A DNA stretch of 64,000 bases from a virus (IMGVR_UViG_3300044984_001938); one strand, 5' to 3'. Positions 7,533 to 63,497 are shown, numbered from the stretch's first letter. Numbers and translations are program-made. Notes: a model not told the origin generated them from the letters alone.

Positions 7533-7563
7533 ACATTAGTATACTATATTAGTATAAGGATAC

Positions 7564-8130: not shown

Positions 8131-8250
8131 AATATTTATCTGTAATTGAGTTTAGACTATTTTAACACTAAATACATGATATGTAACATAATAAGGAAAA
8201 ATGCATGGTATTAAGGTGAGTAAACCATAATATTTAACATAAATACAACT

Positions 8251-9081: not shown

Positions 9082-9093
9082 TTAGGAAATAAA

Positions 9094-10957: not shown

Positions 10958-11012
10958 TACTTCCTTCTATTATCAGTGTTGTGTTACTAGTGATACTAAT
11001 ATTGGTGTTAAT

Positions 11013-49984: not shown

Positions 49985-50880
49985 TGAGAGCAACTGAATT
50001 TATCGCAGAAGCAATACTAGATGAAGCAGCTACTGCTATTGTCTACCATTATGCCGGTGTATCTGCTGCTGCAAAAATTCTAACTACTGGAGTTTTTCAA
50101 TTAAGTAGTGTCACAGGTAACTCTAGTGAAGAACAATATGCACCGCCGGGATATCTTTACTTTCTAAGCACAACTCGCAGCAAAGTGGGAGACTATCACC
50201 GATATACTGGTAGCAGCGCCGCTATGTTTGTAATTGATGGGAACTGGTTAAATCGGCATTACAAAACAAAAGCAATTGATTATTGGGAAAGGTCTTGGCA
50301 ACATAGTAACGGTACTCGTACCAGTGAAAGCGAAGATAGAGTATTTTCAAAGACACCTGAAATTCCAATTAACGGAGTAATTGCTGTTCATGTTTTGCTC
50401 AAAGAACAGAGCGAAAATCGTAGCCCCGAAGTTAGAACAATTTTAATCACTGCCAAGAAGCAAGGTATATCAGCTTACTTATACACAGATGAGAAGGCAT
50501 GGCGTTTACAAGATACCCGCAAAGCAGTTACTCCCGGTGACGCTGCTAAATTGCTTAAAGGACAACAACCAAAAGGTTACACACCAAGTCGTCCGCCGAC
50601 AATGTACCTTGAACCGTGGGTAGAACTAATATATAAAAACAAAAAATCAGATTTAACTAGCCGTGCTGAAAAGTTGCGATATGAATTAGTCTACTATGGC
50701 AGTAGACGTCCAGATTCCGATAGTAATCTTGGTGTAGATATGAGCAATGCTCGTAAACCTAATTCTACTGATTATCCAACTGCTGTTAAATTAAATGATT
50801 TTATGCGTAAGAATAAGTTACCAGATACAGTAGCACTTAAAAATATGCTAGTTGATAAATGGGTTAAAATTAAATCTTAA
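49984..50880 (+). CDS. CTS-like-tagged hypothetical protein (298 aa)
   Basis: The N-terminus is MRATEFIAEA. TAATG overlap with the preceding gene. Confidence 0.5.
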   Translation: MRATEFIAEAILDEAATAIVYHYAGVSAAAKILTTGVFQLSSVTGNSSEEQYAPPGYLYFLSTTRSKVGDYHRYTGSSAAMFVIDGNWLNRHYKTKAIDYWERSWQHSNGTRTSESEDRVFSKTPEIPINGVIAVHVLLKEQSENRSPEVRTILITAKKQGISAYLYTDEKAWRLQDTRKAVTPGDAAKLLKGQQPKGYTPSRPPTMYLEPWVELIYKNKKSDLTSRAEKLRYELVYYGSRRPDSDSNLGVDMSNARKPNSTDYPTAVKLNDFMRKNKLPDTVALKNMLVDKWVKIKS

Positions 50881-51703
50881 GCAAATCTTCCAAAGAGTAT
50901 ACCTCTTTCATATAGGGTGACACATTATCTAATACAGATATTGCTAAGTCACCCTTTCTTCTTGGGCCTATCTTTGTAAGCAAATTAATATTAGGTATAT
51001 TATTTACTTCTTTGAACTTATTAACTATCTCGGCAACAGTATAACCTACCCCATGCCCTAAACATTCTATTTGATTACTTGGCTTCTCAATAGCAGTACA
51101 TAATGCGTCACATATCTCGTTAACATGAACATAATCACGAATGCAGGTTCCATCTCGTGTATCATAATCATTGCCAAAGATGGTAAACTCGCCTCTTTCC
51201 TTAGCCTTCATTAGATTATACATTAATCCATCAGGATTGGTTGGATCAAACCCATCACTACCAATAACATTGTAGAATCTAAATATTGTATAAGGTTTAG
51301 GATTATGCTGAGTAAAATACTCACGCACCACATCCTCTGCTGCTCGTTTACTAATGCCATACGCACTAGCACATCCCACTGCTGCTCCAGTGCTGGCAAA
51401 TATAAAGTTCTTTGTCCGTACCTTATTGATAACATTCATTGTACCATTCAAATTAGTGATGTAATAACTTAGTGGGATACGCTCACTTTCACCCACATTG
51501 ACTAGTGCTGCCAAGTGAATCGTTGCATCAAACTCGGTTGGTAATTCAAATAGTCTACGAATATCAACTTGATAGAATTCTTGTAATCCGTCAGCTTGCG
51601 GAACATTGATATCTAGGCCGTGTACCTCGTAGTCATTTGCTAGCATCTTAACTAGATGACTACCAATGTAACCCGAACAACCTGTAATTAATATTTTTTT
51701 CAT
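50870..51703 (-). CDS. NAD-dependent epimerase/dehydratase (SDR family)
   Basis: The N-terminal Rossmann motif is ILITGCSGYIGSHLV (GxxGxxG). The later AYGISK fits the SDR catalytic YxxxK pattern. Confidence 0.7.
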   Translation of the reverse strand: MKKILITGCSGYIGSHLVKMLANDYEVHGLDINVPQADGLQEFYQVDIRRLFELPTEFDATIHLAALVNVGESERIPLSYYITNLNGTMNVINKVRTKNFIFASTGAAVGCASAYGISKRAAEDVVREYFTQHNPKPYTIFRFYNVIGSDGFDPTNPDGLMYNLMKAKERGEFTIFGNDYDTRDGTCIRDYVHVNEICDALCTAIEKPSNQIECLGHGVGYTVAEIVNKFKEVNNIPNINLLTKIGPRRKGDLAISVLDNVSPYMKEVYSLEDLLKI

Positions 51704-53043
51704 TCAAAACTAAAAAGACTCTCGCCTTCTTCCTCTGGTTCAAACGACGGGTCCTTACTCAAGTAAGTATCATCGTCCGTGTATAGTATACGAAACTTAT
51801 GCTTGTTTGTCAATACTGATTTGATATCATCAATGCATAACAAGCTACGACCTAACTGTGTATTAAAATCACTCAATTTAATTGTGGGTTCTTCGCATAT
51901 CTTTGCAGTGTTGCTATTAGACTTCTTGCCTTCAAATTCATTGAAGCAGGTATTCCACTTGTGAAATACAGTGGCTTCCACTTGTCGTGCATGTGTTAAT
52001 GAATCTAAGTTGTACCAAGTTGCGGCGTGTTCAAACGAATCATACAACTGTTTTGCTCGTTCAGCCATATTTTTCTTAGTACATTTATAGAAAAAATTCT
52101 CGTTGAAATTATTAGTCCAGCGTTGATTCTCTAATACTAGTGTAGGCAACTGAATATGTTGCTCATAAAAAGCCATACCATAACTCTCTACATTACTTGG
52201 GTTAAAAGCAACTCTGCAACTGGTGATGAAGTCTACTTTCGTTTGCCCAATGATACTAACACCAATCTTATAGTCAGTTATTCCCATCTTCTTAAATCGT
52301 TCTTCAAACTTCTTAGCACCGTTTGTATTAGTCATAACTCGTGCAGGTAATTTAGTTTGTTCAATTAGTTCCAAGTAAAGTTCCGGGTTCTTACCTTCTT
52401 CCCATCTGCCAACAAACAATACACCATCACGCGGATGGTGATGTTCTTCTAACAAACCTTGTTCGGTGATTGGAATTGGTAAATGATATGAATCATCAAT
52501 CTCTAATTGATTGAATTTACTCTGTGTACCAATAAATATACCAGTAGTAGTAAGCTGTTGACGCATCAACTCATTTGTGTTATGCAAAAAAGGATTACTG
52601 GTATCTCTGAAGATTTGACTTTCTAAATGAGTATAAGCAATTATCTGTATAACATCCTCTAGACCCATTGTACTTGCAACTTGTACAGTTTCATATGTAT
52701 TGCATACTAATGCATCGTATATATTATGCTCTAATGCTTCAATGATACTATTGCGAAAGTTAGCCATGCGTTCATAACAAAATGTATCCCCGAACATAAA
52801 GATATTACTGTGGTCAGTGTACTTTAATGATTCATTTGGACAAACAATATTAGCTTTGAGAGATTTAACAAACTCACTATCTTGTGGTTTTTTATCTGTG
52901 ATAATATCAACTTTAATATTATGAATATCCATCAATTCACAAAAACTCTTAGCAAACTGTCCTATTCCACCATGCGGAATAAGATACTGGTAGCTAATTA
53001 GAAATCCAATTCGTTTGTTATATGTTCGCATTCTTAACCTCAT
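51700..53043 (-). CDS. glycosyltransferase family 1/4 (GT-B)
   Basis: The C-terminal half has FVGRWEEGKN...AFNPSNVESYGMAFYEQ, matching the GT4 GRxxxxKG and PSxxE-x7-E motifs. Confidence 0.55.
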   Translation of the reverse strand: MRLRMRTYNKRIGFLISYQYLIPHGGIGQFAKSFCELMDIHNIKVDIITDKKPQDSEFVKSLKANIVCPNESLKYTDHSNIFMFGDTFCYERMANFRNSIIEALEHNIYDALVCNTYETVQVASTMGLEDVIQIIAYTHLESQIFRDTSNPFLHNTNELMRQQLTTTGIFIGTQSKFNQLEIDDSYHLPIPITEQGLLEEHHHPRDGVLFVGRWEEGKNPELYLELIEQTKLPARVMTNTNGAKKFEERFKKMGITDYKIGVSIIGQTKVDFITSCRVAFNPSNVESYGMAFYEQHIQLPTLVLENQRWTNNFNENFFYKCTKKNMAERAKQLYDSFEHAATWYNLDSLTHARQVEATVFHKWNTCFNEFEGKKSNSNTAKICEEPTIKLSDFNTQLGRSLLCIDDIKSVLTNKHKFRILYTDDDTYLSKDPSFEPEEEGESLFSFE

Positions 53044-53533: not shown

Positions 53534-54382
53534 TTAGGTATTCCATGCGTTTTTAAAGAGTGGCACCTGAAGTCTATCACTATAACGCCAGCCTAACCGC
53601 ATTGCTTCAAGTGCAACTGTTTTGGCATTCATGTTATATACACTTTCAACTCCGCCACATGGCATCAAGTAAGCATTACCCCTAAATCCGTGAGTACGAT
53701 ATTGATTAACTGCTTCTTGTGCTTCTTCTACATCTTGTCTATTGGCCACAACAAACTTCAGATATGTATGACCTACTTGACTATATTCATCAATAATTTC
53801 AGGACATATTGCTTCTTCCCACTTCTCGCCACTGATACCAAGTTTAGGACTAACACTAAATGTTATTGCACCTCTAGAACGATTGATGGCCCATTGATGC
53901 AAGTAGGTTTTCAATTGATGTTGCAACGGTTGAGTGCCATTTGTTTCAAATGTTAGTTCTTGTAAACCCGTCATGTTTTCATGTGAAAGTAAATCAATAT
54001 AACTGCGTTGCCAACCTAGCAAAGGTTCACCCCCTGTAATAACAAGATGTTCTTCCATCCAACGCTTGTGCGGAAGCATTGTCATAATACTTTCAACAAT
54101 ACTATCAGTAGTACGTATTGGACTGAAATCTTTGAAACGAGGATCCCAACTTGCATAACTATCGCAACCTGTACTAACTAATGGTAGTTGGGTGTAAGCC
54201 GTGTAGTAATGCACACGGGCTGCGATATCTTCTACTTCACTACTTATTTCGCCCCTTGGCATACCAAACCCTGCACATTTGAAGTTGCAACCAAATGTTC
54301 GTAGGAAAATACTTGGTACTCCGATATATCGGCCTTCTCCTTGAATACTATAAAATAGTTCACTAATTTTTAATTTGCTCAT
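53534..54382 (-). CDS. queE: 7-carboxy-7-deazaguanine synthase QueE-like radical SAM enzyme
   Basis: ISELFYSIQGEGRYIGVPSIFLRTFGCNFKC matches the QueE N-terminus (IQGEG..G.P..F.R..GCN..C). A third cluster Cys is not obvious. Confidence 0.6.
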   Translation of the reverse strand: MSKLKISELFYSIQGEGRYIGVPSIFLRTFGCNFKCAGFGMPRGEISSEVEDIAARVHYYTAYTQLPLVSTGCDSYASWDPRFKDFSPIRTTDSIVESIMTMLPHKRWMEEHLVITGGEPLLGWQRSYIDLLSHENMTGLQELTFETNGTQPLQHQLKTYLHQWAINRSRGAITFSVSPKLGISGEKWEEAICPEIIDEYSQVGHTYLKFVVANRQDVEEAQEAVNQYRTHGFRGNAYLMPCGGVESVYNMNAKTVALEAMRLGWRYSDRLQVPLFKNAWNT

Positions 54383-54549
54383 TTTTTGATCCTTAATCTA
54401 ACTAATTGCACCTGCTATGATAAACAAGTTTGTAATGACATAGCATAACACAATACAAGTTCTAATACACGCAATACGGTCAGATTCTGTATCGGTTGTG
54501 CCCGCTTTCTCACCTAGGGATTTTGCCCATATTCTCCAAAATATCTTCA

Positions 54550-54768
54550 TTATTTCTTTAATGGCTTTAGAGGCATATCAGGAAATGAACCCCATGCTTG
54601 TTTCAATTCGGCTGAAACTCCTTCTGGTCCTCCACTATTTACCCACGCACGATTGATAACAACAGTTGGATTACCATTGACTATAACATATCGTGTAAGA
54701 AAGTCACTGTAATCATAAGTACCATCAGGTACCCATTTAAACATTTTAAAGTCTGAATCAGAACTCAT
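54550..54768 (-). CDS. hypothetical protein
   Basis: 72-aa ORF within the deazaguanine cluster. A further 50-aa membrane ORF (54383-54550) lies just downstream. Confidence 0.35.
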   Translation of the reverse strand: MSSDSDFKMFKWVPDGTYDYSDFLTRYVIVNGNPTVVINRAWVNSGGPEGVSAELKQAWGSFPDMPLKPLKK

Positions 54769-55268
54769 TCAAACAAATCCTCATTCCATTCACGATGCCC
54801 CTCTCTAAAAGCCATATTTGCCTGTGTTTCACGTACTTCAACCCGATAGCACCACAAACGCTTTGCTTCACTTTCACCCCACATATCAGGAATGTAAACC
54901 CCGTTAACATACTTGTATAGCATATCTGCAAGACTTTCACATCCTAAGTTGGGGAGAATAGTTAATTTCATAATGCCACGATGTTCCGCCTGCACATACC
55001 AGTCTAGATGTGGATCTGATTCAGCCACTAATGTTGTATGGTCAAATTGACTCTCTAATGTTTGCTTTAGTTCTTTCAAGCCGCCATAATCCGCAGCCCA
55101 TCGGCGCGCATCTAAGTCGTTTGTTCCAAAATAGAACTTCATTGAGAAGCTATAACCATGTAAAAACTGGCAATGGCTGTCGGCTTTGTACTGTCTATAA
55201 GCACAGGGGAACGCATCGTGATACTCTTTTGTGGAAGTCCACTTATATGTTACTGGTAGTTGTGTCAT
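54765..55268 (-). CDS. queD: 6-carboxytetrahydropterin synthase QueD / PTPS-like
   Basis: HCQFLHGYSF matches the QueD/PTPS Cys..HGH-type motif. The start is trimmed to the internal MTQLPV to avoid overlap, giving a QueD-like size. Confidence 0.55.
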   Translation of the reverse strand: MTQLPVTYKWTSTKEYHDAFPCAYRQYKADSHCQFLHGYSFSMKFYFGTNDLDARRWAADYGGLKELKQTLESQFDHTTLVAESDPHLDWYVQAEHRGIMKLTILPNLGCESLADMLYKYVNGVYIPDMWGESEAKRLWCYRVEVRETQANMAFREGHREWNEDLFE

Positions 55269-55269
55269 T

Positions 55270-55749
55270 TTACTTATCTTTTTGATGTGCGTCCGCAACT
55301 CGTTTACGTAGACTTGAACTACTGAAACTGTGATCACGCTCATTAAATACTATTTCAATTCTGCGAGTTTGACAAATATCGCTACCCGTAAAATCCTTAT
55401 CTTTGTATTCTACACCCAAGATACGAACATCAATAGGTAGTATGAGTAGAATATCTTCCAAGTCCTTCTCAGTATTGTAAACAACAATTTCATCTACAAA
55501 ACGGACAGCACTTAAACTAATCTGCCTCTCAACAATACTTTGAATAGGAGCATTCTTCTCCGCTCTATCCCATTGTGCGTTATTCTGCAAACCAGCAATA
55601 AGATAGTCGCAATGATTTTTAGCTTCACTAAGCATTGCAATATGCCCGGCATGTAGAATATCAAATTGGGAGAATACGATACCTATCTTAAGCCCTTGTT
55701 GTTTTAGTTCTTTGATTCTGTTGAATATCATTTTTTTAATGTTCTCCAC
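55270..55749 (-). CDS. cytidylyltransferase-like nucleotidyltransferase (HxGH; RfaE domain II / TagD-like)
   Basis: FSQFDILHAGHIAML matches the HxGH motif of the nucleotidyltransferase superfamily (for example GCFDILHAGH in the heptose-1-P adenylyltransferase domain). Confidence 0.6.
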   Translation of the reverse strand: MENIKKMIFNRIKELKQQGLKIGIVFSQFDILHAGHIAMLSEAKNHCDYLIAGLQNNAQWDRAEKNAPIQSIVERQISLSAVRFVDEIVVYNTEKDLEDILLILPIDVRILGVEYKDKDFTGSDICQTRRIEIVFNERDHSFSSSSLRKRVADAHQKDK

Positions 55750-56039
55750 ATCTTTATTTTAGAATGTTCATCAAGAAATTCTTCTTCGCCGGCGAATGTA
55801 GGTGAATCAGCCATAATCTCATCAAGCAACCACTTGATACGATGTAAGTCTTTTTTGATTTCAAACTGATTGAAACCATCGTTGTAGTTGCTATGCAATT
55901 CTATTCCAGCTGTGTAAATTTGATGATGAACACCGGTATAGTCCATTGGTTTACGAAATCCCATTTTTTCCTCTGCATGTACAGTTACGACCTTGATTAC
56001 AATTTCCGGTACATACCGAGTTTGTACTTTTCCAAGCAT
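55728..56039 (-). CDS. hypothetical protein
   Basis: 103-aa ORF. Confidence 0.35.
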   Translation of the reverse strand: MLGKVQTRYVPEIVIKVVTVHAEEKMGFRKPMDYTGVHHQIYTAGIELHSNYNDGFNQFEIKKDLHRIKWLLDEIMADSPTFAGEEEFLDEHSKIKMWRTLKK

Positions 56040-56132
56040 TAGTAAATATTGATATAAATGCTGCTAGCAGTGGATTTAGTATATATCCAATTATAATTCC
56101 CATCATCAAATTGTCTATATTGATCCAGTTCA

Positions 56133-56807
56133 TTATCGTCCCCTTGCTAATTGATAGAATTCTGCTCTAGCTGCTGGATCAGTTTTAAACCCACCACCTA
56201 ATCTACTTGTTACAGTACTACTACCCGTATCCTCAACTCCCCTGCTTTTCACACAGTAATGTTGTGCGTCAACCATAACCGCAACATCTTCTGTTTCAAG
56301 TATGTATTGTAATGCGTGAAAGACTTGTTCTGTTAATCGTTCTTGGATTTGTGGTCGCTTGCTAAAGTATTCTACGATACGATTGATTTTACTCAATCCA
56401 AGTACCTTTTGTTTAGGCACATATGCGACAGTTGCTAGACCGGAGATAATCACTAAATGATGTTCACAATTACTTTGTACATTAATATTGCGTTCACATA
56501 CCATTTCATTGTACTTCATTTTGTTATCAACTGCGGTACATTTAGGGAATGCTTCGTAATCAAGACCCCAAAAGATTTCGTTGACATACATTTTTGCTAC
56601 ACGCTTTGGGGTATCCATTAAACTATCGTCTGATAAGTCAAGACCTAAGATACGCATAATATGTGCAAAGTGCGCTTCAATATGGTCTATCTTTTCTTTA
56701 CGGTCGTAGTTGTTTGGGATAGTAGGAGTTTCAACTCCCATCTTAACTAAATGTTCGTGTACTCGTTGACCCAACTCTGGGTCTGTTTTTTGCTTATTAT
56801 ACGCCAT
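56133..56807 (-). CDS. folE: GTP cyclohydrolase I FolE
   Basis: NCEHHLVIISG is the CEHHLV zinc motif of FolE. The following ...KINRIVEYFSKRPQIQERLTEQV is also typical. Confidence 0.85.
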   Translation of the reverse strand: MAYNKQKTDPELGQRVHEHLVKMGVETPTIPNNYDRKEKIDHIEAHFAHIMRILGLDLSDDSLMDTPKRVAKMYVNEIFWGLDYEAFPKCTAVDNKMKYNEMVCERNINVQSNCEHHLVIISGLATVAYVPKQKVLGLSKINRIVEYFSKRPQIQERLTEQVFHALQYILETEDVAVMVDAQHYCVKSRGVEDTGSSTVTSRLGGGFKTDPAARAEFYQLARGR

Positions 56808-56973
56808 AGATAACCTTCCTTTGTGATGGTTTTTGTTTTGAAATGTAAACTACCGTTGTGTATCTTACATTTTATTTATCACAGATTAAGCCTTAGCTTC
56901 TTTTCTTGCTGCTTTTTCAGCGGTAATTTCGTTACGGCGATCCTTAACCGCTTTAGCTAGTTCACCCAATACC

Positions 56974-57180
56974 TCATGGACGAACCGTTTCCTGCCACTG
57001 ATCTCTTGCAACTTTACCAGATGCAAGTTTTGTATACTGACGATACACATAACTACGTTGGTCGTAGAGTTCTGCTTCGTTGTACTTATAACCAAAATCC
57101 ACACAGAATGTTAGATATTTCTCTAGGTCCTCAAAGATTTGAGTAACACGTGGGTTTGATTGAAAAGTTTGTTTTGCCAT
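56974..57180 (-). CDS. hypothetical protein
   Basis: 68 aa with an aaagga SD upstream. A second frame (56886-57104) continues it. Confidence 0.35.
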   Translation of the reverse strand: MAKQTFQSNPRVTQIFEDLEKYLTFCVDFGYKYNEAELYDQRSYVYRQYTKLASGKVARDQWQETVRP

Positions 57181-57192
57181 GTTATATTCCTT

Positions 57193-57645
57193 TTAAATAG
57201 CGAGTGATTGATACGGGTGAGTTTTACTATAAAAAATCGTAGCACCATTCTCATTGTCCTCTGAGACTGTGATAGTGATATTACGATTTGGATACCGAGT
57301 TGCAATAACCTCATAAAGATCATCACTAATCATTTCACAACTTTTATGGTTCAATTCAAGAATATTACCGGCATAGAGATTTTCTAACCAGCGTTTTACT
57401 TGAATAAATTCCAAATCACGGTCGTTGTGAAATACTTCCATAGTCACTTCAAAATGAAAGATGTGACGATGCAAAGTTCCTAAAAAGCTAACATCATACT
57501 CATCACCTGTAGCAAGTGCTGGGTCTGTTGCTGCTGCCGGGTAACAATGAATACCCTCTTTCTGAAAACGTACAAAAATTGTACGAATTGCTTTTTCTTT
57601 AATGCGCTGCCGCTTTTCTGCTTGTGCTTGTATCATCTGTTCCAT
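57193..57645 (-). CDS. hypothetical protein within the deazaguanine cluster
   Basis: 150 aa with no recognisable motif. It lies between folE and dpdA. Confidence 0.45.
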   Translation of the reverse strand: MEQMIQAQAEKRQRIKEKAIRTIFVRFQKEGIHCYPAAATDPALATGDEYDVSFLGTLHRHIFHFEVTMEVFHNDRDLEFIQVKRWLENLYAGNILELNHKSCEMISDDLYEVIATRYPNRNITITVSEDNENGATIFYSKTHPYQSLAI

Positions 57646-57813
57646 TATCTATCCCTTTTGTAATCATATGTATCACGTATACTTGCCCACTGCAACTTAT
57701 TAAGTCGCTGTATGTTATAGTATATCATACTATGTTGTGATTGCATAGCTTTACGGGAATCTTTGTCAAAGTTATCAACCTTTTTTTCTATTGCAATTTG
57801 TTGGCTATACATA

Positions 57814-59400
57814 TTACTCCAAAACTAATGCGATAGCATCATCACTATCTTCTAGTTCTTCTAACGGTTCTTCATCTACTGAAAACAATTCATCAAACAT
57901 ACTCATAGCATTAACAGTTTTCTTACCACTAATACCCTGACTACCTGATTGGAATTGTTTCCAATAACTATTATGAAAATCAATCAAATCTAGTGATTCT
58001 TGTTTAGTTTTCTTTGCAAAGATTTCATCAACTAATTGAGTAAAGAACCTATCACCTTCAAACTTATGTACTAACATCTTTGGAACTACACCTTGTTCAT
58101 ACTGACGATTAGCCTCTTGAACTGCATTCATATGCATCCAAACATTGTGACTTTGTAACAGTGTATAACTTAATGTATCCCAACTTGTTTTAGTTTCTTT
58201 ACCGTGCTGTCCCAAGAAACCTACACCACGATAACATAAATCTTTCATAACTAATGCATCAGTTACTGGACTATCTGTAAATAATTTATGTATACCATCA
58301 GCTAATACAGCATCACGATACTTGCGATTATCATTGGCATAACTTTTCTTTTCAGCAGTCTTTTCCATGCTGTAAGACCATTTTTTATTATGCTGGATAT
58401 TAGTATTGAAATATGCCAATCCTTTAGCAGCACTAAAGAATGGGCTGGCACAGTCAAATGTAATTTGTAGTTTTGGATTATGATACTTTCGTATTGCCTT
58501 CTGTATATCAGTAAACAACACAGCATATTCCAAGATACTTGTTCCCAAGCAATGAATCAAATCATGCTTACCTTCAACTAACAATCCATCATGGATAATA
58601 CCAACTAATCTACGTAGCATTAAATGTATATCAATCTTGTTCTGTCCACCGAATGCCCAGCCATTGAAATGATTATCTGGAAAGATGTTAGTATCGCAAT
58701 ACTTTTTCATTTCTTCATACCAATCATCTGATTGAGTATGATTGCGACCCTGTAATACATTTAATAACTTGCATTTCCCTGAGCGATTATTTATAAAGTA
58801 TTCGTTATTAATATGTGTAGCTGCAATGGCTTCTTCAATAGTACTGATACCGTGTAAACTGTTGCCGTTCTTATCTTTCATTCCAAATGTAGTCAATGAT
58901 TGACTTGGAATATCTAAACACATACCATAATCCATGTATGTGTCCATCCAATTCAATACTGCTTTACGCTTTACCATAGCCCGTGGACAGTTGGGATCCT
59001 TCCAATCAGCTGGCCATTGACCTTTTAAAATCTGAAAGCCACCACTATCGCCCAATATGAATGTACCTTCTTCACGTTCACGGATGATTGATTCACTTGA
59101 ATCATCTTTGGTAGTATCCAAATTAGCGTGACCAGCACTGTATAGTCCCCACTTGTAGTAGTAAAGACCTTCTTTGCTGTTAAGAAAGTTTAGTTTCTCT
59201 ACATCACCTTTGAAACTGGCAGGGATACGTGCTTGGTCAAAATAGTTTTCACCCTTACGTTGCTTACCCAAGCCAGCAATATAAAAACTACTGACTGCGG
59301 GTAAGAACAATGCCCAATCTGGGTTATGCTTCGCTGATAGATTATCTTGTTTCAATTGATACTCTTGATCATTTCTTATTAGCTGGCAACAAGTAAACAT
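57814..59400 (-). CDS. dpdA: TGT-family transglycosylase, DpdA-like (7-deazaguanine DNA-modifying)
   Basis: LGDSGGFQILKGQW carries the DSGGFQ catalytic motif of queuine/archaeosine tRNA-guanine transglycosylases. The Tgt zinc-binding C-terminus is absent. Its position beside FolE/QueD/QueE is as in phage dG+ and preQ0 DNA-modification clusters. Confidence 0.7.
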   Translation of the reverse strand: MFTCCQLIRNDQEYQLKQDNLSAKHNPDWALFLPAVSSFYIAGLGKQRKGENYFDQARIPASFKGDVEKLNFLNSKEGLYYYKWGLYSAGHANLDTTKDDSSESIIREREEGTFILGDSGGFQILKGQWPADWKDPNCPRAMVKRKAVLNWMDTYMDYGMCLDIPSQSLTTFGMKDKNGNSLHGISTIEEAIAATHINNEYFINNRSGKCKLLNVLQGRNHTQSDDWYEEMKKYCDTNIFPDNHFNGWAFGGQNKIDIHLMLRRLVGIIHDGLLVEGKHDLIHCLGTSILEYAVLFTDIQKAIRKYHNPKLQITFDCASPFFSAAKGLAYFNTNIQHNKKWSYSMEKTAEKKSYANDNRKYRDAVLADGIHKLFTDSPVTDALVMKDLCYRGVGFLGQHGKETKTSWDTLSYTLLQSHNVWMHMNAVQEANRQYEQGVVPKMLVHKFEGDRFFTQLVDEIFAKKTKQESLDLIDFHNSYWKQFQSGSQGISGKKTVNAMSMFDELFSVDEEPLEELEDSDDAIALVLE

Positions 59401-60100
59401 AAATTGCTATACCACTATCAACTGTGATTTCCGTTGCACCTTGTTCACTAATCTTAACTGTCTTGTCCCCGACTAAATCCATGATACTCAAGAATTCTTT
59501 AACGGGCCACTTATGTGTACCAGCTAGTGTTCCGGTAACTGGAGTATTGAATACAAAGTTACCGCTATGTGTTGATGCGTCACCAAAGTATACTTTCAAA
59601 TCACTTCCATCAGTTTTGAATACAAAATGATCTTCTTCGCTATTTGCTTGTGATTGCTTCTTAAGTCGTTGAATACCAGCAATTGTAGGTTCAAATTCAA
59701 CATTCCACTTAGCACCCTTAAAGGATACACTTTTAACTTTCTCGTCAACTACACTTTTAAGCATAAGACGATAATCATTAACAAAGTCACCACTCTTTGT
59801 TTCAAAGTGAATAGTAGAAGGTACATCTACCCCGTCACGTTGAGTACGAACAACATTAATTTTAGATGTTCCGTCATATTCATCAAACCCAATAATTGTC
59901 TTGAGTTTATTCAAGTTGGGCATTCCGAATACACCAATAAAGTCGGCAATCGGATCTTTGAATGTACCACTAATAATTACGCTTTTGTTTTCTGCTACCG
60001 CATTGATTACTGTTTCAGTATCAGTACCTGTAACTTTAATCAGTTCAATTGTACCAAGACCAAGAGTATGATCAATTAAGTCTTTTAAAAAATCTTTCAT
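59369..60100 (-). CDS. hypothetical protein
   Basis: The start is chosen at MKDFLKDL, which is preceded by aaaggaaacaaa. The track ORF extends to 60202. Confidence 0.45.
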   Translation of the reverse strand: MKDFLKDLIDHTLGLGTIELIKVTGTDTETVINAVAENKSVIISGTFKDPIADFIGVFGMPNLNKLKTIIGFDEYDGTSKINVVRTQRDGVDVPSTIHFETKSGDFVNDYRLMLKSVVDEKVKSVSFKGAKWNVEFEPTIAGIQRLKKQSQANSEEDHFVFKTDGSDLKVYFGDASTHSGNFVFNTPVTGTLAGTHKWPVKEFLSIMDLVGDKTVKISEQGATEITVDSGIAIYVYLLPANKK

Positions 60101-60159
60101 TTTGTTTCCTTTGTATGTTAAATTGTACACGTTTTTAATAAAATATGCATTTAATATGT

Positions 60160-60726
60160 TCACTTCCAATATGGGCCCCATGCCCAACAATTCAGTGACC
60201 ATCGTTCACCTGCTGTTATTGGTTTTACTTCATGTAAATAGAATGCAGGTAAAATGGTCAATGATCCTATTGTTTTACTTACCGCATTCCTAATTACATG
60301 AAGATTGCCTCCCTGATATTCTGATCCATCAGTTAATTGCAATAGCATTGTTAATTTTCGTTCAGTACCTGCTGTGCCATAATATTGGTCAACATGTTCT
60401 GTGACGTAATCTCCTTCGCTATATCTTTTTATCTCATATTGTTCTACATGAGTTACATGAAAACCATAATAGTTAAACGCTTCTTCCCAAATAGGAGACA
60501 ATATTTCGTGTAATTTATTGTCATTCCAATTTAAAGGTACTCTACAAGTATGGCATTCAATGTCCCAATGTTTGGGAGTACGATTAACAGAACGATGCCA
60601 GCCTGATTCACTGCTTAATGCAAACTCTCGTAGTGAATGGCAAATATCAAAACTTAATGCTTTTTCTTTTTTAAATAATTTTATTGGGAAACTATTATTT
60701 CTAGTAAATTCAATTTGTTGTATCAT
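60160..60726 (-). CDS. 2OG-Fe(II) oxygenase superfamily protein
   Basis: YVTEHVDQ (HxD), ...GGNLHVI...LHEVKPITAGERWSL (distal His and RxS) fits the double-stranded beta-helix 2OG oxygenase pattern. Confidence 0.5.
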   Translation of the reverse strand: MIQQIEFTRNNSFPIKLFKKEKALSFDICHSLREFALSSESGWHRSVNRTPKHWDIECHTCRVPLNWNDNKLHEILSPIWEEAFNYYGFHVTHVEQYEIKRYSEGDYVTEHVDQYYGTAGTERKLTMLLQLTDGSEYQGGNLHVIRNAVSKTIGSLTILPAFYLHEVKPITAGERWSLNCWAWGPYWK

Positions 60727-60791: not shown

Positions 60792-63497
60792 TTACCCGAA
60801 GCTGAACAAATCATCAAATGTTGAGTTAACATCAGTATTACTTCTGATATCCCAATCCAATACACCAAGTAAGTTGTCTATCTTCTCATCTACTAGTGTT
60901 GATTCCATTAGTAAATCATCAAATGGCAAGTCTTTGAACCATTGTGGTAATCTTAATTCATCAACCGGATATGCAATACTAGTGAATCCCAATGCATTAT
61001 CTTTGAGTTTACATACAACAATCTTCATACCATCTATAATCTTTTGACTGTAATTATCCCCGTATACTCTGCGTAGATAGTTCCAGTTAATTGCTGCTCG
61101 GGCATGACCAACACCACACTTGCCCGACTTTTCAAACTCAATAGTATGTTTAGTTAGATTGTTAACACTCTTTGGTGATCCCTTTGTCCAGCTATCTTGT
61201 TCAGACAACTTGTTTTTGAATTCTTTAACCATTTCAATAACTTTGTCCCGCTGCTCACCAGCAAGGACCTTTGTAAGCACCGTCATTAAGAATTCTTGTA
61301 TATACTTTGGGGTATCGGCACGCTTTAAGTCAAGGCCCGTCGCTTTGATATCACCATTCTTACCATTGATATCTTTACGCTTGCCTTCTTTATCAAAGAT
61401 ATTGATGGCATAGCGTTTCTTTGTGATGAAGATAGCACGATCACCAATCAATTCACGACCAGCTTTGATGATTTCACCGTTCTTTCTTGGGGCATGAAAT
61501 GCCTTTTCCATGAATGCAGGGAATGATTCATTTGCTTGATCAGCTATACTATCATACAAGCCGATACAAGTTTCTTTGTTCCACTCTAGTTCACCACTTG
61601 CTATTTGTGTTTTGAGAATAGGATATGCAGTAAAATAACATGAGTCAGTATCTCCATACACAATAGCTTGACCATCATGTGAATATTCACCTGCGATTGT
61701 TTCATTGATTGTACTCATCATATGCTTAACAATCTGACGACCACTCAAGGTAACACTTTGACCGATGCGCTTATCATAGAATCTGCAATGCTCATTCAAC
61801 AACGCACCATATGCTGAGTTCAACAAAATTTTACGAACAAGCTGACGCTTATCAAAATATTCATATTGATCAGTGCCATAAGCTGATTTAGCTTTAGCTT
61901 GCATTTCTTTACGCTCACTATACCAGCGAGTAAGTAGTCCAGGGACTACACCCTCTTTTTCGTAAGTAAAGATAGTAGCATTAGCTGACAACATCCATGG
62001 GCGATTGCTATCAAAAATCATCTTCCAAATCTCGGCTGCACTCATCTCTACTGACCTGCCATCTTCGTAGTCTAATGTCAGTATTGTTCCGCGTTCTTGA
62101 TTCATAATAGCAGTATATTCTAATACGCTAAACAAGTTTTCCCAAAGAATAGCACCAGTAACGTCCTCGTCACCCTCTTTGAATCGTTTCTTAACGCTAG
62201 CAAGTTGCTTGCCTTTGTCGTCCATATACTTGTCAGTTAATGTCTGTCGGACTTGACCGATGATGGTTTCTCCTGCCATGTTGAGGGCACGAATAACCGA
62301 GGGATAGAGCGAGTTGATGTCAACTGCTCCGACATATTCGTGCATGCCTCTTTTCGGCGTAGCAACGAAGGCACCTGCTGCTGTCGTTGTTTCTTCTGCA
62401 TTTTCAATCTTTCGTTTTTTGTCTGGCACTACCAATCCACGTTCGTGGGCTTCATTAAAAATTGCCATCTCAACCATTGCTACTGAACCCATGACTGTTG
62501 GAAGCAGTACAGTGTTCTCGTGCGCCAATTGATTAGCAAGTTCTAAAAACTTAAGTTTGTTGTGAATCTTCACCAACAACATAGTATCTTGTCTGTTGTA
62601 TTCAATAAACTTTTTAAAGTCTTTGTTATACAATTGATCTAGCGTACCTTCGTATTGAGTTTTGTTTTCTCCTACTTCCATTTCACCAATCGCATCTAAC
62701 TTGTAGCTGTGACGGGATTCATAGTTGTATTTCTTGTAGAGTTGTAAGTAGTCCAAATGAATACGACCAACTAAGTCGTATGTTTGTTCTTCTTTACCAA
62801 ACCGTTCATATGTGCGTGGTTTAGGCAGTTGACCCATCAAACAAAACTTGCGTGTATCATCTTTACTCATTACTCGGGTAACCCGATTAACCATGTAAGG
62901 TATGTCATATCCTTCTGAGTTCCAACCAGTCAATACATCAGCATCTTCAATGAGTTGAAAGAAAACATCAAACATATCCTTCTCATTGGCAAAAAGTAAA
63001 CAGTTTTCAAACTCATTACAAATTTCCTGTGCTGTTTCTTTACTCATATGCTTGGGAGCAATGACCAATGTAACCAATTGATCCAGCCAATCTAGATAAC
63101 AACTGATAGCGGTTACTGGATTGAACGGATCGGTTGTTGGACTAAACCCCTTAATCGGATCAAAATCAGTTTCAATGTCAAAGAAGCAAGTATGCAGATT
63201 GGGAACATCTGCCTTAAGATAGTTTTCACTAAGGCAACGAAACACCACTGGTACATCACTTTCAAATAATTTCTTACCTGAATGGATGCGTCTTTCTTTT
63301 TCAAACTCTTGTCGTTTGCGTGTGCTGAAACGATTTACGGGGTCACCGTATATACTGCGATACTTGCCCTTACGATCAGGATAATACAGTACATAGTTTG
63401 TGGAATATTCTTTGTATTGACGCTTGCCATTCTTATCCCGTTCTACTACAAAAATTTTATCTTCATCTCTGGAATGTATTGCATCCACATATGACAT
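60792..63497 (-). CDS. DNA polymerase, family B (T4 gp43-like)
   Basis: 901 aa. It has the polymerase motifs DINSLYPSV (motif A), KILLNSAYG (motif B) and YGDTDS (motif C). The N-terminal exonuclease region is present. Confidence 0.95.
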   Translation of the reverse strand: MSYVDAIHSRDEDKIFVVERDKNGKRQYKEYSTNYVLYYPDRKGKYRSIYGDPVNRFSTRKRQEFEKERRIHSGKKLFESDVPVVFRCLSENYLKADVPNLHTCFFDIETDFDPIKGFSPTTDPFNPVTAISCYLDWLDQLVTLVIAPKHMSKETAQEICNEFENCLLFANEKDMFDVFFQLIEDADVLTGWNSEGYDIPYMVNRVTRVMSKDDTRKFCLMGQLPKPRTYERFGKEEQTYDLVGRIHLDYLQLYKKYNYESRHSYKLDAIGEMEVGENKTQYEGTLDQLYNKDFKKFIEYNRQDTMLLVKIHNKLKFLELANQLAHENTVLLPTVMGSVAMVEMAIFNEAHERGLVVPDKKRKIENAEETTTAAGAFVATPKRGMHEYVGAVDINSLYPSVIRALNMAGETIIGQVRQTLTDKYMDDKGKQLASVKKRFKEGDEDVTGAILWENLFSVLEYTAIMNQERGTILTLDYEDGRSVEMSAAEIWKMIFDSNRPWMLSANATIFTYEKEGVVPGLLTRWYSERKEMQAKAKSAYGTDQYEYFDKRQLVRKILLNSAYGALLNEHCRFYDKRIGQSVTLSGRQIVKHMMSTINETIAGEYSHDGQAIVYGDTDSCYFTAYPILKTQIASGELEWNKETCIGLYDSIADQANESFPAFMEKAFHAPRKNGEIIKAGRELIGDRAIFITKKRYAINIFDKEGKRKDINGKNGDIKATGLDLKRADTPKYIQEFLMTVLTKVLAGEQRDKVIEMVKEFKNKLSEQDSWTKGSPKSVNNLTKHTIEFEKSGKCGVGHARAAINWNYLRRVYGDNYSQKIIDGMKIVVCKLKDNALGFTSIAYPVDELRLPQWFKDLPFDDLLMESTLVDEKIDNLLGVLDWDIRSNTDVNSTFDDLFSFG

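What the first reader, a model, noticed from the sequence alone, without database searches (positions are those of the whole stretch)
53534..59400. 7-deazaguanine DNA-modification cluster (FolE, QueD, QueE, DpdA-like TGT) with QueC replaced by a nucleotidyltransferase
FolE (CEHHLV), QueD-like, QueE-like and a TGT-family protein with DSGGFQ lie together on one strand. This is the gene set used by phages that put preQ0 or archaeosine-type bases into their DNA. No PP-loop QueC (SGGxDS) was found in the window. Instead an HxGH cytidylyltransferase-like protein and two unknown ORFs (57193-57645 and 59369-60100) sit in the cluster. The final base could therefore differ from the described dPreQ0, dG+ or dADG series.
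Basis: partly seen in the sequence, partly recalled or inferred. Interest (0 to 1): 0.7.

Follow-up and report, generated by a model that had tools for sequence, protein, structure and literature searches.

The report
QueC-free 7-deazaguanine DNA-modification cluster with glycosyltransferases
A large environmental phage carries the known QueC-independent gene set for replacing guanine in its DNA with a 7-deazaguanine base. The set always travels with sugar-transferring enzymes, so the final base may carry a sugar that nobody has yet described.

Summary
FolE, a QueD-like protein, a QueE-like protein, a TGT-fold protein with DSGGFQ and an HxGH nucleotidyltransferase lie on the minus strand at the stated coordinates. 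The window has no QueC.

The interpretation needs correcting. The "unknown" ORF 57193-57645 is DpdL. DpdL is the QueD paralogue (motif LxxxHRHxF) that Cui et al. 2023 proposed as a decarboxylase of 7-carboxy-7-deazaguanine (CDG). DpdL, not the nucleotidyltransferase, accounts for the missing QueC. The gene set is the one found in Cellulophaga phage phiST, whose guanines are all replaced by 2'-deoxy-7-deazaguanine (dDG).

The nucleotidyltransferase resembles sugar-phosphate or polyol-phosphate nucleotidyltransferases. It is absent from about half of the close relatives and is common in phages that lack the pathway. ORF 59369-60103 belongs to the replication module and is annotated elsewhere as a sliding clamp.

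What appears unreported: a GT4-like glycosyltransferase family (window 28295-29377) is a near-obligate neighbour of dpdL and dpdA. It lies beside dpdL in 65 of 80 viral loci, in six phage lineages and in bacterial isolates. A second GT-B protein, a GalE-like epimerase and the nucleotidyltransferase are interleaved with the cluster here.

Predicted product: dDG, possibly glycosylated. This is a new variant of a known kind. It can be tested on cultured relatives (PA5oct, ACP17).

The parts
57814..59400 (-). DpdA-like DNA-guanine transglycosylase (TGT fold). It belongs to a divergent family shared with PA5oct and Phosso. The start codon is uncertain, because homologues are 513-518 aa.
   Evidence: AF2 model pLDDT 88.7. 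Foldseek top 11 PDB hits are all TGT, ArcTGT or QTRT1, E 3e-6 to 2e-3. D118-S119-G121, D163, H283 and D316 are invariant, and Q123 and G218 nearly so, across 54 relatives. No CxCxxC...H motif. hhalign to the ACP17 DpdA gives 96%.
57193..57645 (-). DpdL: a QueD/PTPS-fold paralogue and the predicted 7-carboxy-7-deazaguanine decarboxylase.
   Evidence: Motif LGTLHRHIF matches LxxxHRHxF (PMC10516641). tblastn and blastp hits to ACP17 and phiST DpdL. Alignments A1 and A7. hhalign of the DpdL family against the QueD family gives 91.7%, E 7.6e-7.
56974..57180 (-). Conserved 68-aa ORF of unknown function that always follows dpdL in this clade.
   Evidence: Present after DpdL in 79 of 83 related loci. 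No Pfam family above its cut-off.
56133..56807 (-). FolE, GTP cyclohydrolase I (GTP to H2NTP).
   Evidence: Pfam PF01227 3.6e-62. PHROG 5.5e-76.
55728..56039 (-). 103-aa ORF of unknown function, variably present.
   Evidence: Present between FolE and the nucleotidyltransferase in 21 of 83 loci. No family hit.
55270..55749 (-). HxGH cytidylyltransferase-like nucleotidyltransferase, probably a sugar-phosphate or polyol-phosphate nucleotidyltransferase. Accessory to the cluster. The likely start is Met7, at 55731.
   Evidence: Pfam CTP_transf_like 5.4e-9. NCBIfam rfaE_dom_II 3e-19 and TagD 2e-14, both below their cut-offs. PHROG 7878 7e-30. Lies between FolE and QueD in 22 of 42 loci.
54765..55343 (-). 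QueD-like 6-carboxytetrahydropterin synthase of the phage subtype, with AYR and HGY in place of AHR and HGH. The likely start is Met26, at 55268.
   Evidence: Pfam PTPS 1.2e-14. PHROG QueD-like 1.9e-35. Alignment with E. coli, ACP17 and phiST QueD.
53534..54382 (-). QueE-like radical-SAM 7-carboxy-7-deazaguanine synthase, with a split cluster motif C-x3-C-x36-C.
   Evidence: PHROG QueE-like 5.1e-50. NCBIfam QueE models 6e-15 to 6e-11, below their cut-offs. Alignment.
51700..53043 (-). GT-B glycosyltransferase-like protein ('GT447'), linked to the cluster in this clade and in cyanophage BUCT-ZZ01.
   Evidence: hhalign to the GT360 family gives 92.5% over 255 columns. Weak PDB hits to starch, glycogen and trehalose synthases. 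A full-length homologue, 37% identical, lies between FolE and DpdA in BUCT-ZZ01. Downstream of QueE in 18 related loci, 17 of which also contain QueE.
50870..51703 (-). GalE-like NAD-dependent sugar epimerase/dehydratase.
   Evidence: Pfam Epimerase 4.2e-32. NCBIfam galE 3.4e-48, below its cut-off. Follows GT447 in 13 relatives.
28295..29377 (-). GT4-like retaining GT-B glycosyltransferase ('GT360'). It is the orthologue of the glycosyltransferase that sits beside dpdL and dpdA in other phages and bacteria. Here it lies 28 kb from the cluster.
   Evidence: 45% identical to PA5oct 0317 and Phosso gp224, and 38% to ACP17 gp124, all adjacent to dpdL. Of 80 viral loci fetched with this family, 74 carry 7-deazaguanine genes and 65 carry DpdL. 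Foldseek hits to glycogen synthase, BshA, GlgM and MshA. A family profile hits PDB GT4 enzymes at 3e-4.
60160..60726 (-). 2OG-Fe(II) oxygenase, an accessory gene that changes position within the cluster among relatives.
   Evidence: Pfam 2OG-FeII_Oxy_3 1.1e-12. In 6 of 83 relatives it lies between DpdA and DpdL, or after ORF68.
59369..60103 (-). 244-aa replication-module protein, probably a sliding clamp. It is context, not part of the pathway.
   Evidence: Follows PolB in 72 of 83 loci (73 carry the protein). Homologues occur in jumbo phages with no deazaguanine genes found here (Atu_ph07, GAP32, CBB, BF). Annotated 'sliding clamp' in Phosso and 'PCNA' in PAC2. No Pfam or PDB sequence hit.
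60792..63497 (-). Family-B DNA polymerase, the conserved upstream anchor of the cluster.
   Evidence: 47% identical to the PA5oct and Phosso polymerases. Pfam DNA_pol_B in the orthologue of L004.

Best explanation
This is a phage module that replaces guanine in the phage's own DNA with a 7-deazaguanine base, without QueC.

Proposed steps:
1. FolE converts GTP to H2NTP.
2. QueD converts H2NTP to CPH4.
3. The radical-SAM enzyme QueE converts CPH4 to 7-carboxy-7-deazaguanine (CDG).
4. DpdL is a QueD paralogue that has lost the catalytic Cys but keeps the metal-binding His and Glu residues. It is predicted to decarboxylate CDG to 7-deazaguanine.
5. The TGT-fold DpdA-like enzyme exchanges guanine in double-stranded DNA for that base after replication.

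What is shown here: the identity and fold of each protein, and their conserved co-occurrence. What is inferred: each enzymatic step, from the family assignments and from phage phiST, which has the same five functions and has dDG in place of all dG.

A sugar module rides with the cluster. It comprises the HxGH nucleotidyltransferase, a GalE-like epimerase and two GT-B glycosyltransferases. One of them, GT360, belongs to a GT4-like family that is almost always next to dpdL and dpdA elsewhere.

My reading is that the nucleotidyltransferase and epimerase make an activated sugar, and that the glycosyltransferases put it on the 7-deazaguanine. The acceptor could be the base in DNA or the free base. 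This last step is inference from gene neighbourhood only.

My estimates: about 0.8 that the core is a DpdL-type deazaguanine DNA modification, about 0.4 that the final base is plain dDG, and about 0.35 that it is glycosylated.
For: - Protein identities.
- DpdA-like fold: TGT family only among significant PDB matches. The catalytic-type residues DSGG, D163 and the FDC Asp316 are invariant and Q217 is conserved in the consensus across 54 relatives.
- DpdL: signature motif, homology to the DpdL proteins named in PMC10516641, and a QueD-like profile match.
- No QueC in the window, nor in 83 + 80 + 29 related loci.
- Gene order PolB-clamp-DpdA-DpdL-ORF68-[sugar slot]-FolE-(NTase)-QueD-QueE-GT447-epimerase is conserved in 83 loci.
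- The relative PA5oct has the same DpdA, DpdL, glycosyltransferase and QueE. Its DNA resists G-containing restriction sites and is targeted by sensors of modified G (PMC12191111).
- Glycosyltransferase linkage.
- Glycosyltransferase fold.
- Chemical precedent: a GT4 enzyme glycosylates a 7-deazaguanine base in huimycin biosynthesis.
Against: - No chemistry was done here.
- DpdL has never been shown to decarboxylate CDG. Cui et al. found no dDG when they expressed phiST or ACP17 dpdA + dpdL in E. coli.
- The DpdA-like protein is only marginally related to phiST DpdA3 (hhalign 48%). Its substrate may therefore differ.
- In this window GT360 lies 28 kb from the cluster, and the usual sugar slot between dpdL and folE is empty.
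- dDG offers no obvious hydroxyl for O-glycosylation.
- The closest structural analogues of GT360 act on small molecules or glucans, not DNA.
- Only 64 kb of a probably much larger genome (related contigs reach about 360 kb) was seen, so a QueC or a phosphoribosyltransferase could lie elsewhere.
Confidence: 0.75

Rival explanations
1. The final base is plain dDG, as in phiST. The glycosyltransferases, epimerase and nucleotidyltransferase do something unrelated to DNA, such as glycosylating virion proteins or host envelope, or making a small-molecule glycoside.
For: - phiST makes dDG with FolE, QueD, QueE, DpdL and DpdA3 and has no glycosyltransferase.
- Nucleotidyltransferase homologues occur in many phages without deazaguanine genes.
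- A distant member of the glycosyltransferase family sits with GlmS and a BshB-like deacetylase in phage PhiXhv-12.
- The structural neighbours of GT360 are not DNA enzymes.
- GT360 is far from the cluster in this window.
Against: - GT360-family genes lie directly beside dpdL in 65 of 80 viral loci. They do so in PA5oct, ACP17, Phosso, BCSR5, X1/BUDD and BUCT-ZZ01, and in compact GT-DpdL-DpdA-QueD operons of Magnetospirillum and Methylobacterium isolates.
- Such tight, cross-lineage linkage is hard to explain without a shared pathway.
- ACP17 dpdA + dpdL alone gave no dDG in E. coli.
Confidence: 0.35
2. The HxGH nucleotidyltransferase replaces QueC by adenylating the CDG carboxylate, in the manner of PanC or class I aminoacyl-tRNA synthetases, and so leads to a new amide or ester derivative.
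For: - HxGH-superfamily enzymes include carboxylate-adenylating members. There is a weak N-terminal Pfam match to Pantoate_ligase, 1.8e-3.
- The gene sits between FolE and QueD.
- Campylobacter phages make dADG without QueC by an unknown route.
Against: - The best matches are phosphate-directed nucleotidyltransferases, RfaE domain II and TagD.
- It lies between FolE and QueD in only 22 of 42 close relatives.
- It is absent from all seven outgroup clusters.
- It is common in phages lacking the pathway, and there is no Campylobacter phage homologue.
- DpdL already accounts for a QueC-less route.
Confidence: 0.05
3. The base is built into nucleotides and incorporated by the phage polymerase before or during replication. 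The route would resemble tubercidin biosynthesis: CDG + PRPP, then decarboxylation. DpdA would have a minor or different role.
For: - An XGPRT-like phosphoribosyltransferase sits in the cluster in 32 of 80 viral loci, in PA5oct and in BUCT-ZZ01.
- Tubercidin clusters lack QueC and use CDG with a phosphoribosyltransferase and a decarboxylase.
- Replacement of G is complete in phiST.
- The cluster abuts the polymerase and the clamp.
Against: - The window has no phosphoribosyltransferase homologue.
- A DpdA-family protein is found in 48 of the 80 viral loci and in 78 of 83 clade loci, and most of the rest are truncated contigs.
- The phosphoribosyltransferase could equally recycle the guanine that base exchange releases.
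- Cui et al. argue that all known cases are post-replicative.
Confidence: 0.1
4. The genes serve tRNA queuosine or archaeosine, or folate metabolism of the infected cell, and not DNA modification.
For: FolE, QueD and QueE are shared with the queuosine pathway. FolE alone occurs in some viruses for folate synthesis.
Against: - The TGT homologue has no zinc motif, no PUA domain and no detectable Pfam TGT signal.
- There is no QueC, QueF or QueA.
- The cluster lies beside the replication genes.
- PA5oct DNA shows G-specific restriction resistance.
Confidence: 0.03

Closest known systems
Cellulophaga phage phiST dDG system (FolE, QueD, QueE, DpdL, DpdA3; Cui et al., NAR 2023, PMC10516641)
   Same: - The same five functions, no QueC, and a position next to the DNA polymerase.
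- DpdL carries the LxxxHRHxF signature.
- QueD is of the same phage subtype, with HGY.
- The predicted product is 7-deazaguanine in DNA.
   Different: - The transglycosylase here is 528 aa, against 259 aa in phiST. It is related only at marginal profile level (hhalign 48%).
- phiST has no GT4-like glycosyltransferase, nucleotidyltransferase or epimerase.
- phiST DpdL is only 32% identical.
Pseudomonas jumbo phage PA5oct (Wroclawvirus) and Sinorhizobium phage Phosso
   Same: - Closest cultured relatives of the module.
- DpdA-like protein 32% and 28% identical, DpdL 57% and 66%, GT360 both 45%.
- PolB and the clamp-like protein are syntenic.
- PA5oct DNA behaves as G-modified.
   Different: - In both, the glycosyltransferase sits right next to dpdL.
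- PA5oct adds an XGPRT-like phosphoribosyltransferase.
- Neither has the nucleotidyltransferase or a GT447 homologue in the regions examined.
- In GenBank the DpdA-like and DpdL genes are annotated only as hypothetical proteins.
Acidovorax phage ACP17 cluster (dpdA and dpdL tested by Cui et al.)
   Same: The cluster QueD-FolE-DpdA-GT-DpdL-QueE has DpdL 51-53% identical and the glycosyltransferase 38% identical to those of the window.
   Different: - Its DpdA belongs to another sequence cluster (424 aa, shared with X1 and BUCT-ZZ01), related to the window's at hhalign 96%.
- Expression of dpdA + dpdL without the glycosyltransferase gave no dDG.
Campylobacter phage CP220 dADG system
   Same: FolE, QueD, QueE and a DpdA3-type transglycosylase are present without QueC. 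Replacement of G is complete.
   Different: - Its product is the amide dADG.
- No Campylobacter phage appeared among the DpdL, GT360 or nucleotidyltransferase tblastn hits.
Huimycin and dapiramicin biosynthesis (GT4 HuiG glycosylates a 7-deazaguanine base)
   Same: A GT4-type glycosyltransferase is encoded with FolE, QueD and QueE homologues and puts a sugar on a 7-deazaguanine scaffold.
   Different: - It is a secondary metabolite of actinomycetes.
- It starts from preQ0, so QueC is present.
- It acts on the free base, not on DNA.
T4 glucosyl-hydroxymethylcytosine and other phage DNA glycosylation
   Same: GT-B enzymes decorate a non-canonical base of phage DNA after replication. Sugar cassettes vary between relatives.
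   Different: - The acceptor there is a hydroxymethyl pyrimidine.
- No purine-linked sugar in phage DNA came up in the literature I searched.
- T4 glycosyltransferases were not among the structural matches.
Bacterial Dpd system (DpdA/DpdB/DpdC plus restriction genes)
   Same: A TGT-fold DpdA inserts a 7-deazaguanine into DNA. Bacterial loci carrying the DpdA-DpdL-glycosyltransferase trio sit beside nuclease-like genes.
   Different: - The Dpd system inserts preQ0 made by QueC and converts it to ADG.
- Neither DpdB nor DpdC was looked for here.

Membership tests
DpdL-type (QueC-independent) phage 7-deazaguanine DNA-modification system | FolE, QueD and QueE are encoded together. | tested here: met
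   Synteny.
DpdL-type (QueC-independent) phage 7-deazaguanine DNA-modification system | A DpdL homologue with the LxxxHRHxF motif replaces the QueD motif CxxxHGH. | tested here: met
   LGTLHRHIF is present. The protein is 51-53% identical to ACP17 DpdL and 32% to phiST CGPG_00067.
DpdL-type (QueC-independent) phage 7-deazaguanine DNA-modification system | QueC is absent. | tested here: met
   No tblastn hit and no SGGxDS motif in the 64 kb window. None in 192 related loci. The rest of the genome could not be tested.
DpdL-type (QueC-independent) phage 7-deazaguanine DNA-modification system | A DpdA-family transglycosylase is present. | tested here: met
   TGT fold. Conserved DSGG and FDC motifs. 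hhalign to the ACP17 DpdA gives 96%.
DpdL-type (QueC-independent) phage 7-deazaguanine DNA-modification system | dDG replaces dG in virion DNA. | not testable with these tools
   This needs LC-MS/MS of virion DNA.
DpdA3 subfamily (phiST CGPG_00065 type) | Detectable sequence or profile homology to phiST or Campylobacter DpdA3. | tested here: inconclusive
   BLASTP finds nothing. hhalign gives 48% probability over 81 columns. The subfamily tables of Cui et al. are not held.
tRNA-guanine transglycosylase (Pfam TGT, PF01702) | Matches the Pfam model above its threshold. | tested here: not met
   No hit for the window protein. Only 2 of 54 relatives hit, at E = 0.04.
tRNA-guanine transglycosylase (Pfam TGT, PF01702) | Zinc-binding CxCxxC...H subdomain, or a PUA domain in the archaeal enzymes. 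| tested here: not met
   Only single Cys residues follow Asp316. The C-terminal part (409-491) is helical in the model.
QueC (PP-loop 7-cyano-7-deazaguanine synthase) | SGGxDS PP-loop and homology to QueC. | tested here: not met
   The nucleotidyltransferase has HxGH instead and a different family assignment.
Cytidylyltransferase-like nucleotidyltransferases (PF01467) | Pfam model above its cut-off, and an HxGH motif. | tested here: met
   36.8 bits against a cut-off of 21. LHAGH is visible in the translation.
RfaE domain II / TagD equivalogs | Score above the NCBIfam equivalog cut-off. | tested here: not met
   69.3 against 181.5 for RfaE domain II, and 53.8 against 165.4 for TagD. The substrate is therefore unknown.
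GT-B (GT4-like) glycosyltransferases, tested for GT360 | Two-Rossmann GT-B fold with conserved R/K and E residues in the donor site. | tested here: met
   Foldseek hits to glycogen synthase, BshA, GlgM, MshA and PimA. The model is only moderate, pLDDT 73.6. A family profile hits PDB GT4 enzymes at 3e-4. R214, E218, K219, E274 and E292 are invariant. Pfam Glycos_transf_1 scores 22.8, below its cut-off of 26.4.
GT-B glycosyltransferases, tested for GT447 | Homology to GT-B enzymes. | tested here: inconclusive
   No Pfam or NCBIfam hit. hhalign to the GT360 family gives 92.5%. Weak PDB hits to starch and trehalose synthases, E 0.03-0.2.

The most novel reading that the evidence does not exclude
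The trio of a DpdA (window type or ACP17 type), DpdL and a GT4-like glycosyltransferase makes a sugar-bearing 7-deazaguanine in DNA. Here the trio is supplemented by a nucleotidyltransferase, an epimerase and a second GT-B enzyme. This would be the first glycosylated purine hypermodification of a genome. The variable sugar cassettes between dpdL and folE would diversify the glycan among related phages. The same trio sits next to nuclease genes in Magnetospirillum and Methylobacterium, which would make it the modification half of a new bacterial Dpd-like restriction-modification system.
Probability: 0.35. Interest if true: 0.85.

Novelty: new variant of a known kind. Interest (0 to 1): 0.6.

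Why it matters
7-Deazaguanine replacement of G lets phages escape restriction enzymes and some CRISPR nucleases. It also complicates sequencing and phage-therapy design.

Three points follow from this window:
- The QueC-free, DpdL-based route is the norm in a very abundant clade of large environmental phages. The DpdA-like protein has thousands of metagenomic homologues.
- The transglycosylase of this clade, and of the therapy candidate PA5oct, is a TGT-fold protein that standard domain searches miss.
- A glycosyltransferase is a fixed companion of dpdL and dpdA.

The third point gives a concrete reason why dpdA + dpdL alone failed in E. coli. It also predicts an undescribed modified base that can be sought directly in cultured phages (PA5oct, ACP17, Phosso, X1).

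Tried and rejected
Approaches that led nowhere:
- Megablast of the 8 kb region against GenBank phages found no match.
- phmmer and profile searches of the DpdA-like protein against PDB sequences found nothing. Only the fold search worked.
- Pfam scans of 54 DpdA relatives gave only two marginal TGT hits.
- A DpdL profile against PDB and Pfam gave only a non-significant PTPS hit, 2dj6, E 0.16. Profile-profile comparison was needed.
- The supplementary tables of Cui et al. are not held. I could not check whether PA5oct-type DpdA is already classed as DpdA3.
A genome-contig scan with the glycosyltransferase alignment was impossible.
- ORF 59369-60103 could not be confirmed as a sliding clamp by sequence. 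That call rests on annotations in relatives and on synteny.

Ideas rejected:
- The nucleotidyltransferase as a QueC substitute (see the rival explanations).
- A link between the TagD-like nucleotidyltransferase of cyanophage S-B43 and its carboxymethylcytosine pathway. The paper does not mention one.
- The HGY/AYR substitutions in QueD as a sign of a different enzyme. phiST and ACP17 QueD share them.
- The genes around GT360 (Hsp20, ClpX, SPFH) as part of the pathway.

Full report
**The sequence**

All genes of the finding lie on the minus strand, downstream of a family-B DNA polymerase at 60792-63497.
- FolE (56133-56807) matches Pfam GTP_cyclohydroI at 3.6e-62.
- The QueD-like protein (54765-55343) matches Pfam PTPS at 1.2e-14 and the PHROG 'QueD-like' family at 1.9e-35.
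- The QueE-like protein (53534-54382) matches the PHROG 'QueE-like radical SAM' family at 5.1e-50. It also hits five NCBIfam QueE models at 1e-11 to 6e-15, all below their cut-offs.
- The 159-aa HxGH protein (55270-55749) matches Pfam CTP_transf_like above its cut-off.
- The 528-aa protein with DSGGFQ (57814-59400) has no hit in Pfam, PHROGs or NCBIfam.
- No QueC is present. tblastn with E. coli QueC finds nothing below E = 5, and no frame contains SGGxDS.

There are small corrections to the starts: QueD probably begins at 55268, the nucleotidyltransferase at 55731, and the 244-aa ORF at 60103.

**The TGT-like protein**

It has thousands of metagenomic homologues: 5958 hits, and 840 cluster representatives at 50% identity.

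An AlphaFold model built on 54 diverse relatives is confident, with pLDDT 88.7 and pTM 0.88. Its 11 best PDB matches are all bacterial TGT, archaeal ArcTGT or human QTRT1, at E 3e-6 to 2e-3. Generic TIM barrels follow only at E above 0.01.

Asp118-Ser119-Gly121 (DSGGFQ), Asp163, His283 and Asp316 (FDCA) are invariant across the family; Gly218 (in VLQG) is nearly so and Gln217 is conserved in the consensus. By my knowledge of TGT, these correspond to the catalytic and substrate-binding positions Asp102, Asp156, Gln203 and Asp280 of the Zymomonas enzyme.

There is no CxCxxC...H zinc motif and no PUA domain.

The closest GenBank relatives are 'hypothetical proteins' of the PA5oct group of Pseudomonas jumbo phages (32% identity) and of Sinorhizobium phage Phosso. 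Profile comparison links the family to other transglycosylases:
- the DpdA of Acidovorax phage ACP17, at 96%;
- the TGT-annotated protein of Xanthomonas phage X1, at 95.5%;
- the DpdA candidates of BCSR5 and BUCT-ZZ01, at 92%;
- phiST DpdA3, only marginally, at 48%.

**The 'unknown' ORF 57193-57645 is DpdL**

Cui et al. [quoted passage not shown] They proposed a QueD paralogue, DpdL, as the CDG decarboxylase. In DpdL the QueD motif CxxxHGH has become LxxxHRHxF.

The window protein reads LGTLHRHIF. It is 51-53% identical to ACP17 DpdL and 32% to phiST DpdL. The DpdL family matches a QueD family profile at 91.7%, E 7.6e-7.

The QueD of the window has AYR and HGY where E. coli has AHR and HGH. 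phiST and ACP17 QueD share this, so it is a trait of the phage subtype.

The cluster is therefore the already described QueC-independent design: GTP, then H2NTP, then CPH4, then CDG, then (by DpdL) 7-deazaguanine, then exchange into DNA by DpdA. The enzymatic steps are inferred from family membership and from the phiST chemistry. Nothing here shows them directly, and DpdL activity has never been demonstrated.

**Conservation**

I fetched 83 related loci through the DpdA-like protein and through DpdL. They show one order: PolB, clamp-like ORF, (121-aa ORF), DpdA, DpdL, ORF68, a variable slot, FolE, (ORF103), (NTase), QueD, QueE, (two small ORFs), GT447, epimerase. None has QueC.

PA5oct keeps PolB, the clamp-like ORF, DpdA, a glycosyltransferase, DpdL and QueE. 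[quoted passage not shown] The chemical identity of its modified base was not reported there.

**The nucleotidyltransferase**

Its best family matches are heptose-1-phosphate adenylyltransferase (RfaE domain II, 3e-19) and glycerol-3-phosphate cytidylyltransferase (2e-14). Both score far below the equivalog cut-offs.
- It lies between FolE and QueD in only 22 of 42 relatives that span that interval.
- It is absent from the clusters of PA5oct, ACP17, phiST, Phosso, BCSR5, X1 and BUCT-ZZ01.
- Its closest phage homologues, at 60-63% identity, are in Vibrio and Acinetobacter phages where no deazaguanine genes are annotated nearby.

It is an accessory gene, not a QueC substitute.

**The second 'unknown' ORF**

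ORF 59369-60103 follows the polymerase in 72 of 83 loci. It is annotated as a sliding clamp or PCNA in Phosso and PAC2. I could not confirm that by sequence. It belongs to the replication module.

**The glycosyltransferase link**

A 360-aa protein of the window (28295-29377) is 45% identical to PA5oct EST35_0317 and 38% to ACP17 gp124. Both of those lie directly between dpdA and dpdL.

In GenBank phages the family is found in 23 records, and 18 of these also carry DpdL. In Phosso, the PA5oct group, ACP17, BCSR5, X1/BUDD and BUCT-ZZ01 it lies within 0-4 kb of dpdL.

The reverse test gave the same answer. I fetched 80 IMG/VR loci with the glycosyltransferase family alone, at 23-100% identity to ACP17 gp124.
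- 74 of them carry at least one deazaguanine gene within 10 kb.
- 65 carry DpdL, mostly adjacent to the glycosyltransferase.
- 48 carry a DpdA.
- None carries QueC.

In genome records, 21 of 29 DpdL loci have the glycosyltransferase beside dpdL. These include the compact operons GT-DpdL-DpdA-QueD of Magnetospirillum aberrantis and M. sulfuroxidans and DpdA-DpdL-GT of Methylobacterium frigidaeris and Methylobacterium sp. EM32. In M. aberrantis the operon is flanked by a protein with a CoiA-like nuclease domain, a HEPN protein and an integrase.

Loci of the phiST type, including Pseudonocardiaceae and Streptomyces loci, pair DpdL with the short DpdA3 and have no glycosyltransferase.

There are therefore two designs. 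One is DpdA3 + DpdL, for which dDG is proven in phiST. The other is a trio of a long DpdA, DpdL and a glycosyltransferase. The window belongs to the second design, although its glycosyltransferase has moved 28 kb away.

**Nature of the glycosyltransferases**

A profile of the GT360 family hits GT4 enzymes in the PDB at 3e-4. A moderate AlphaFold model (pLDDT 73.6) matches retaining GT-B enzymes: glycogen synthase, BshA, GlgM, MshA, PimA, PglA and WaaG. Arg214, Glu218, Lys219, Glu274 and Glu292 are invariant.

The 447-aa protein next to QueE (51700-53043) has no database family. It matches the GT360 family profile at 92.5% over 255 columns. It has a full-length homologue, 37% identical, between FolE and DpdA in cyanophage BUCT-ZZ01.

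It is followed by a GalE-like epimerase.

In the clade, 48 of 60 loci carry sugar genes in the slot between dpdL and folE. These are another GT-B, a nucleotidyltransferase-cupin fusion or an epimerase. The window has the shortest, empty slot.

**What the sugar genes may do**

The linkage argues that a sugar is part of the pathway. It would also explain why ACP17 dpdA + dpdL alone gave no product in E. coli.

There is chemical precedent. The GT4 enzyme HuiG glycosylates a 7-deazaguanine base with UDP-GlcNAc in huimycin biosynthesis. I found no report of a glycosylated deazaguanine in DNA.

Several points count against this reading:
- phiST does without a glycosyltransferase.
- dDG has no hydroxyl group.
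- The structural neighbours of GT360 are not DNA enzymes.
- The evidence is gene neighbourhood only.

I put the glycosylated-base reading at about 0.35.

An XGPRT-like phosphoribosyltransferase is found in 32 of 80 loci, in PA5oct and in BUCT-ZZ01. It may recycle released guanine, or it may point to a nucleotide-level route like that of tubercidin. The window has none.

**Verdict**

- The system is a new variant of a known kind. It is a DpdL-type deazaguanine pathway with a transglycosylase family that domain databases miss. It also carries a conserved, previously unremarked glycosyltransferase partner.
- The prediction can be tested directly on cultured relatives.

Noticed in passing
window 8251-12783 (+ strand): A block of cellular-type genes lies on the opposite strand, where the GC skew flips to positive. 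It comprises a family-3 solute-binding protein, a sodium:dicarboxylate symporter, an Asp/Glu racemase and a D-Ala-D-Ala carboxypeptidase. This is an unusual auxiliary set for a phage, suggesting amino-acid uptake, D-amino acids and peptidoglycan metabolism.
   Followed up: no
window 22139-22726, 26484-26990, 27037-28239, 31598-32392: A phage-encoded proteostasis set: ClpP (1e-76), Hsp20, a ClpX-like AAA+ protein with a zinc finger, and an SPFH/Band 7 protein. GT360 sits among them.
   Followed up: no
window 53534-54382 (QueE): The radical-SAM cluster motif is split. It reads C32-x3-C36, then about 36 residues, then C73 (GCDSY), where E. coli has CxxxCxxC. PA5oct, X1 and BUCT-ZZ01 QueE have the same insertion. 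ACP17, Phosso, BCSR5 and phiST do not.
   Followed up: partly
window 60160-60726; L014, L023, L027, L047, L056, L071: A small 2OG-Fe(II) oxygenase lies between PolB and the clamp-like ORF here. In six relatives it lies between dpdA and dpdL, or after ORF68. It may be a mobile accessory gene that stays within the cluster, and could be a tailoring enzyme.
   Followed up: partly
L191 (Magnetospirillum aberrantis SpK) 7182-12911; also L199, L193, L194, L196: Bacterial isolates carry a compact GT4-like glycosyltransferase, DpdL, long DpdA, QueD operon. In M. aberrantis it follows a 519-aa protein with a CoiA-like nuclease domain and lies near a HEPN protein and an integrase. It looks like an undescribed Dpd-like restriction-modification or defence island.
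   Followed up: partly
L001 13925-14359 (PA5oct EST35_0321); L091 4084-4545 (BUCT-ZZ01); 32 of 80 IMG/VR loci: An XGPRT-like phosphoribosyltransferase is a frequent member of these clusters, next to QueE or FolE. The window has no homologue. It may salvage guanine released by base exchange, or make a deazaguanine nucleotide.
   Followed up: partly
L179, L181, L183 and others (genome contigs): Contigs up to 335 kb carrying this phage cluster are filed in MAGs of unrelated phyla: Neomarinimicrobiota, Rickettsiales, Methanobacteriota and Phycisphaerae. These are most likely jumbo-phage contigs binned by mistake. They suggest that the clade is aquatic.
   Followed up: no
window 46037-47104, 42489-43484, 32622-33968, 5695-6252, 1827-3656: Other notable genes: a UvdE UV-damage endonuclease, a FEN/RNase H-like 5'-3' exonuclease, an ATP-dependent DNA ligase, an Fe/Mn superoxide dismutase and a 609-aa protein with a GNAT domain.
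   Followed up: no
L096 9254-10405 (Vibrio phage Bakedbeans gp176): The DpdL homologue appears to be the C-terminal part of a 384-aa protein, which may be a fusion.
   Followed up: no
L098 6750-9984 (Xanthomonas phage PhiXhv-12): A distant member of the GT360 family (26% identity) sits with GlmS and a BshB-like deacetylase. This looks like a phage-encoded pathway of the bacillithiol or mycothiol type for a GlcN conjugate. No deazaguanine genes are annotated in the 19-kb stretch examined.
   Followed up: no
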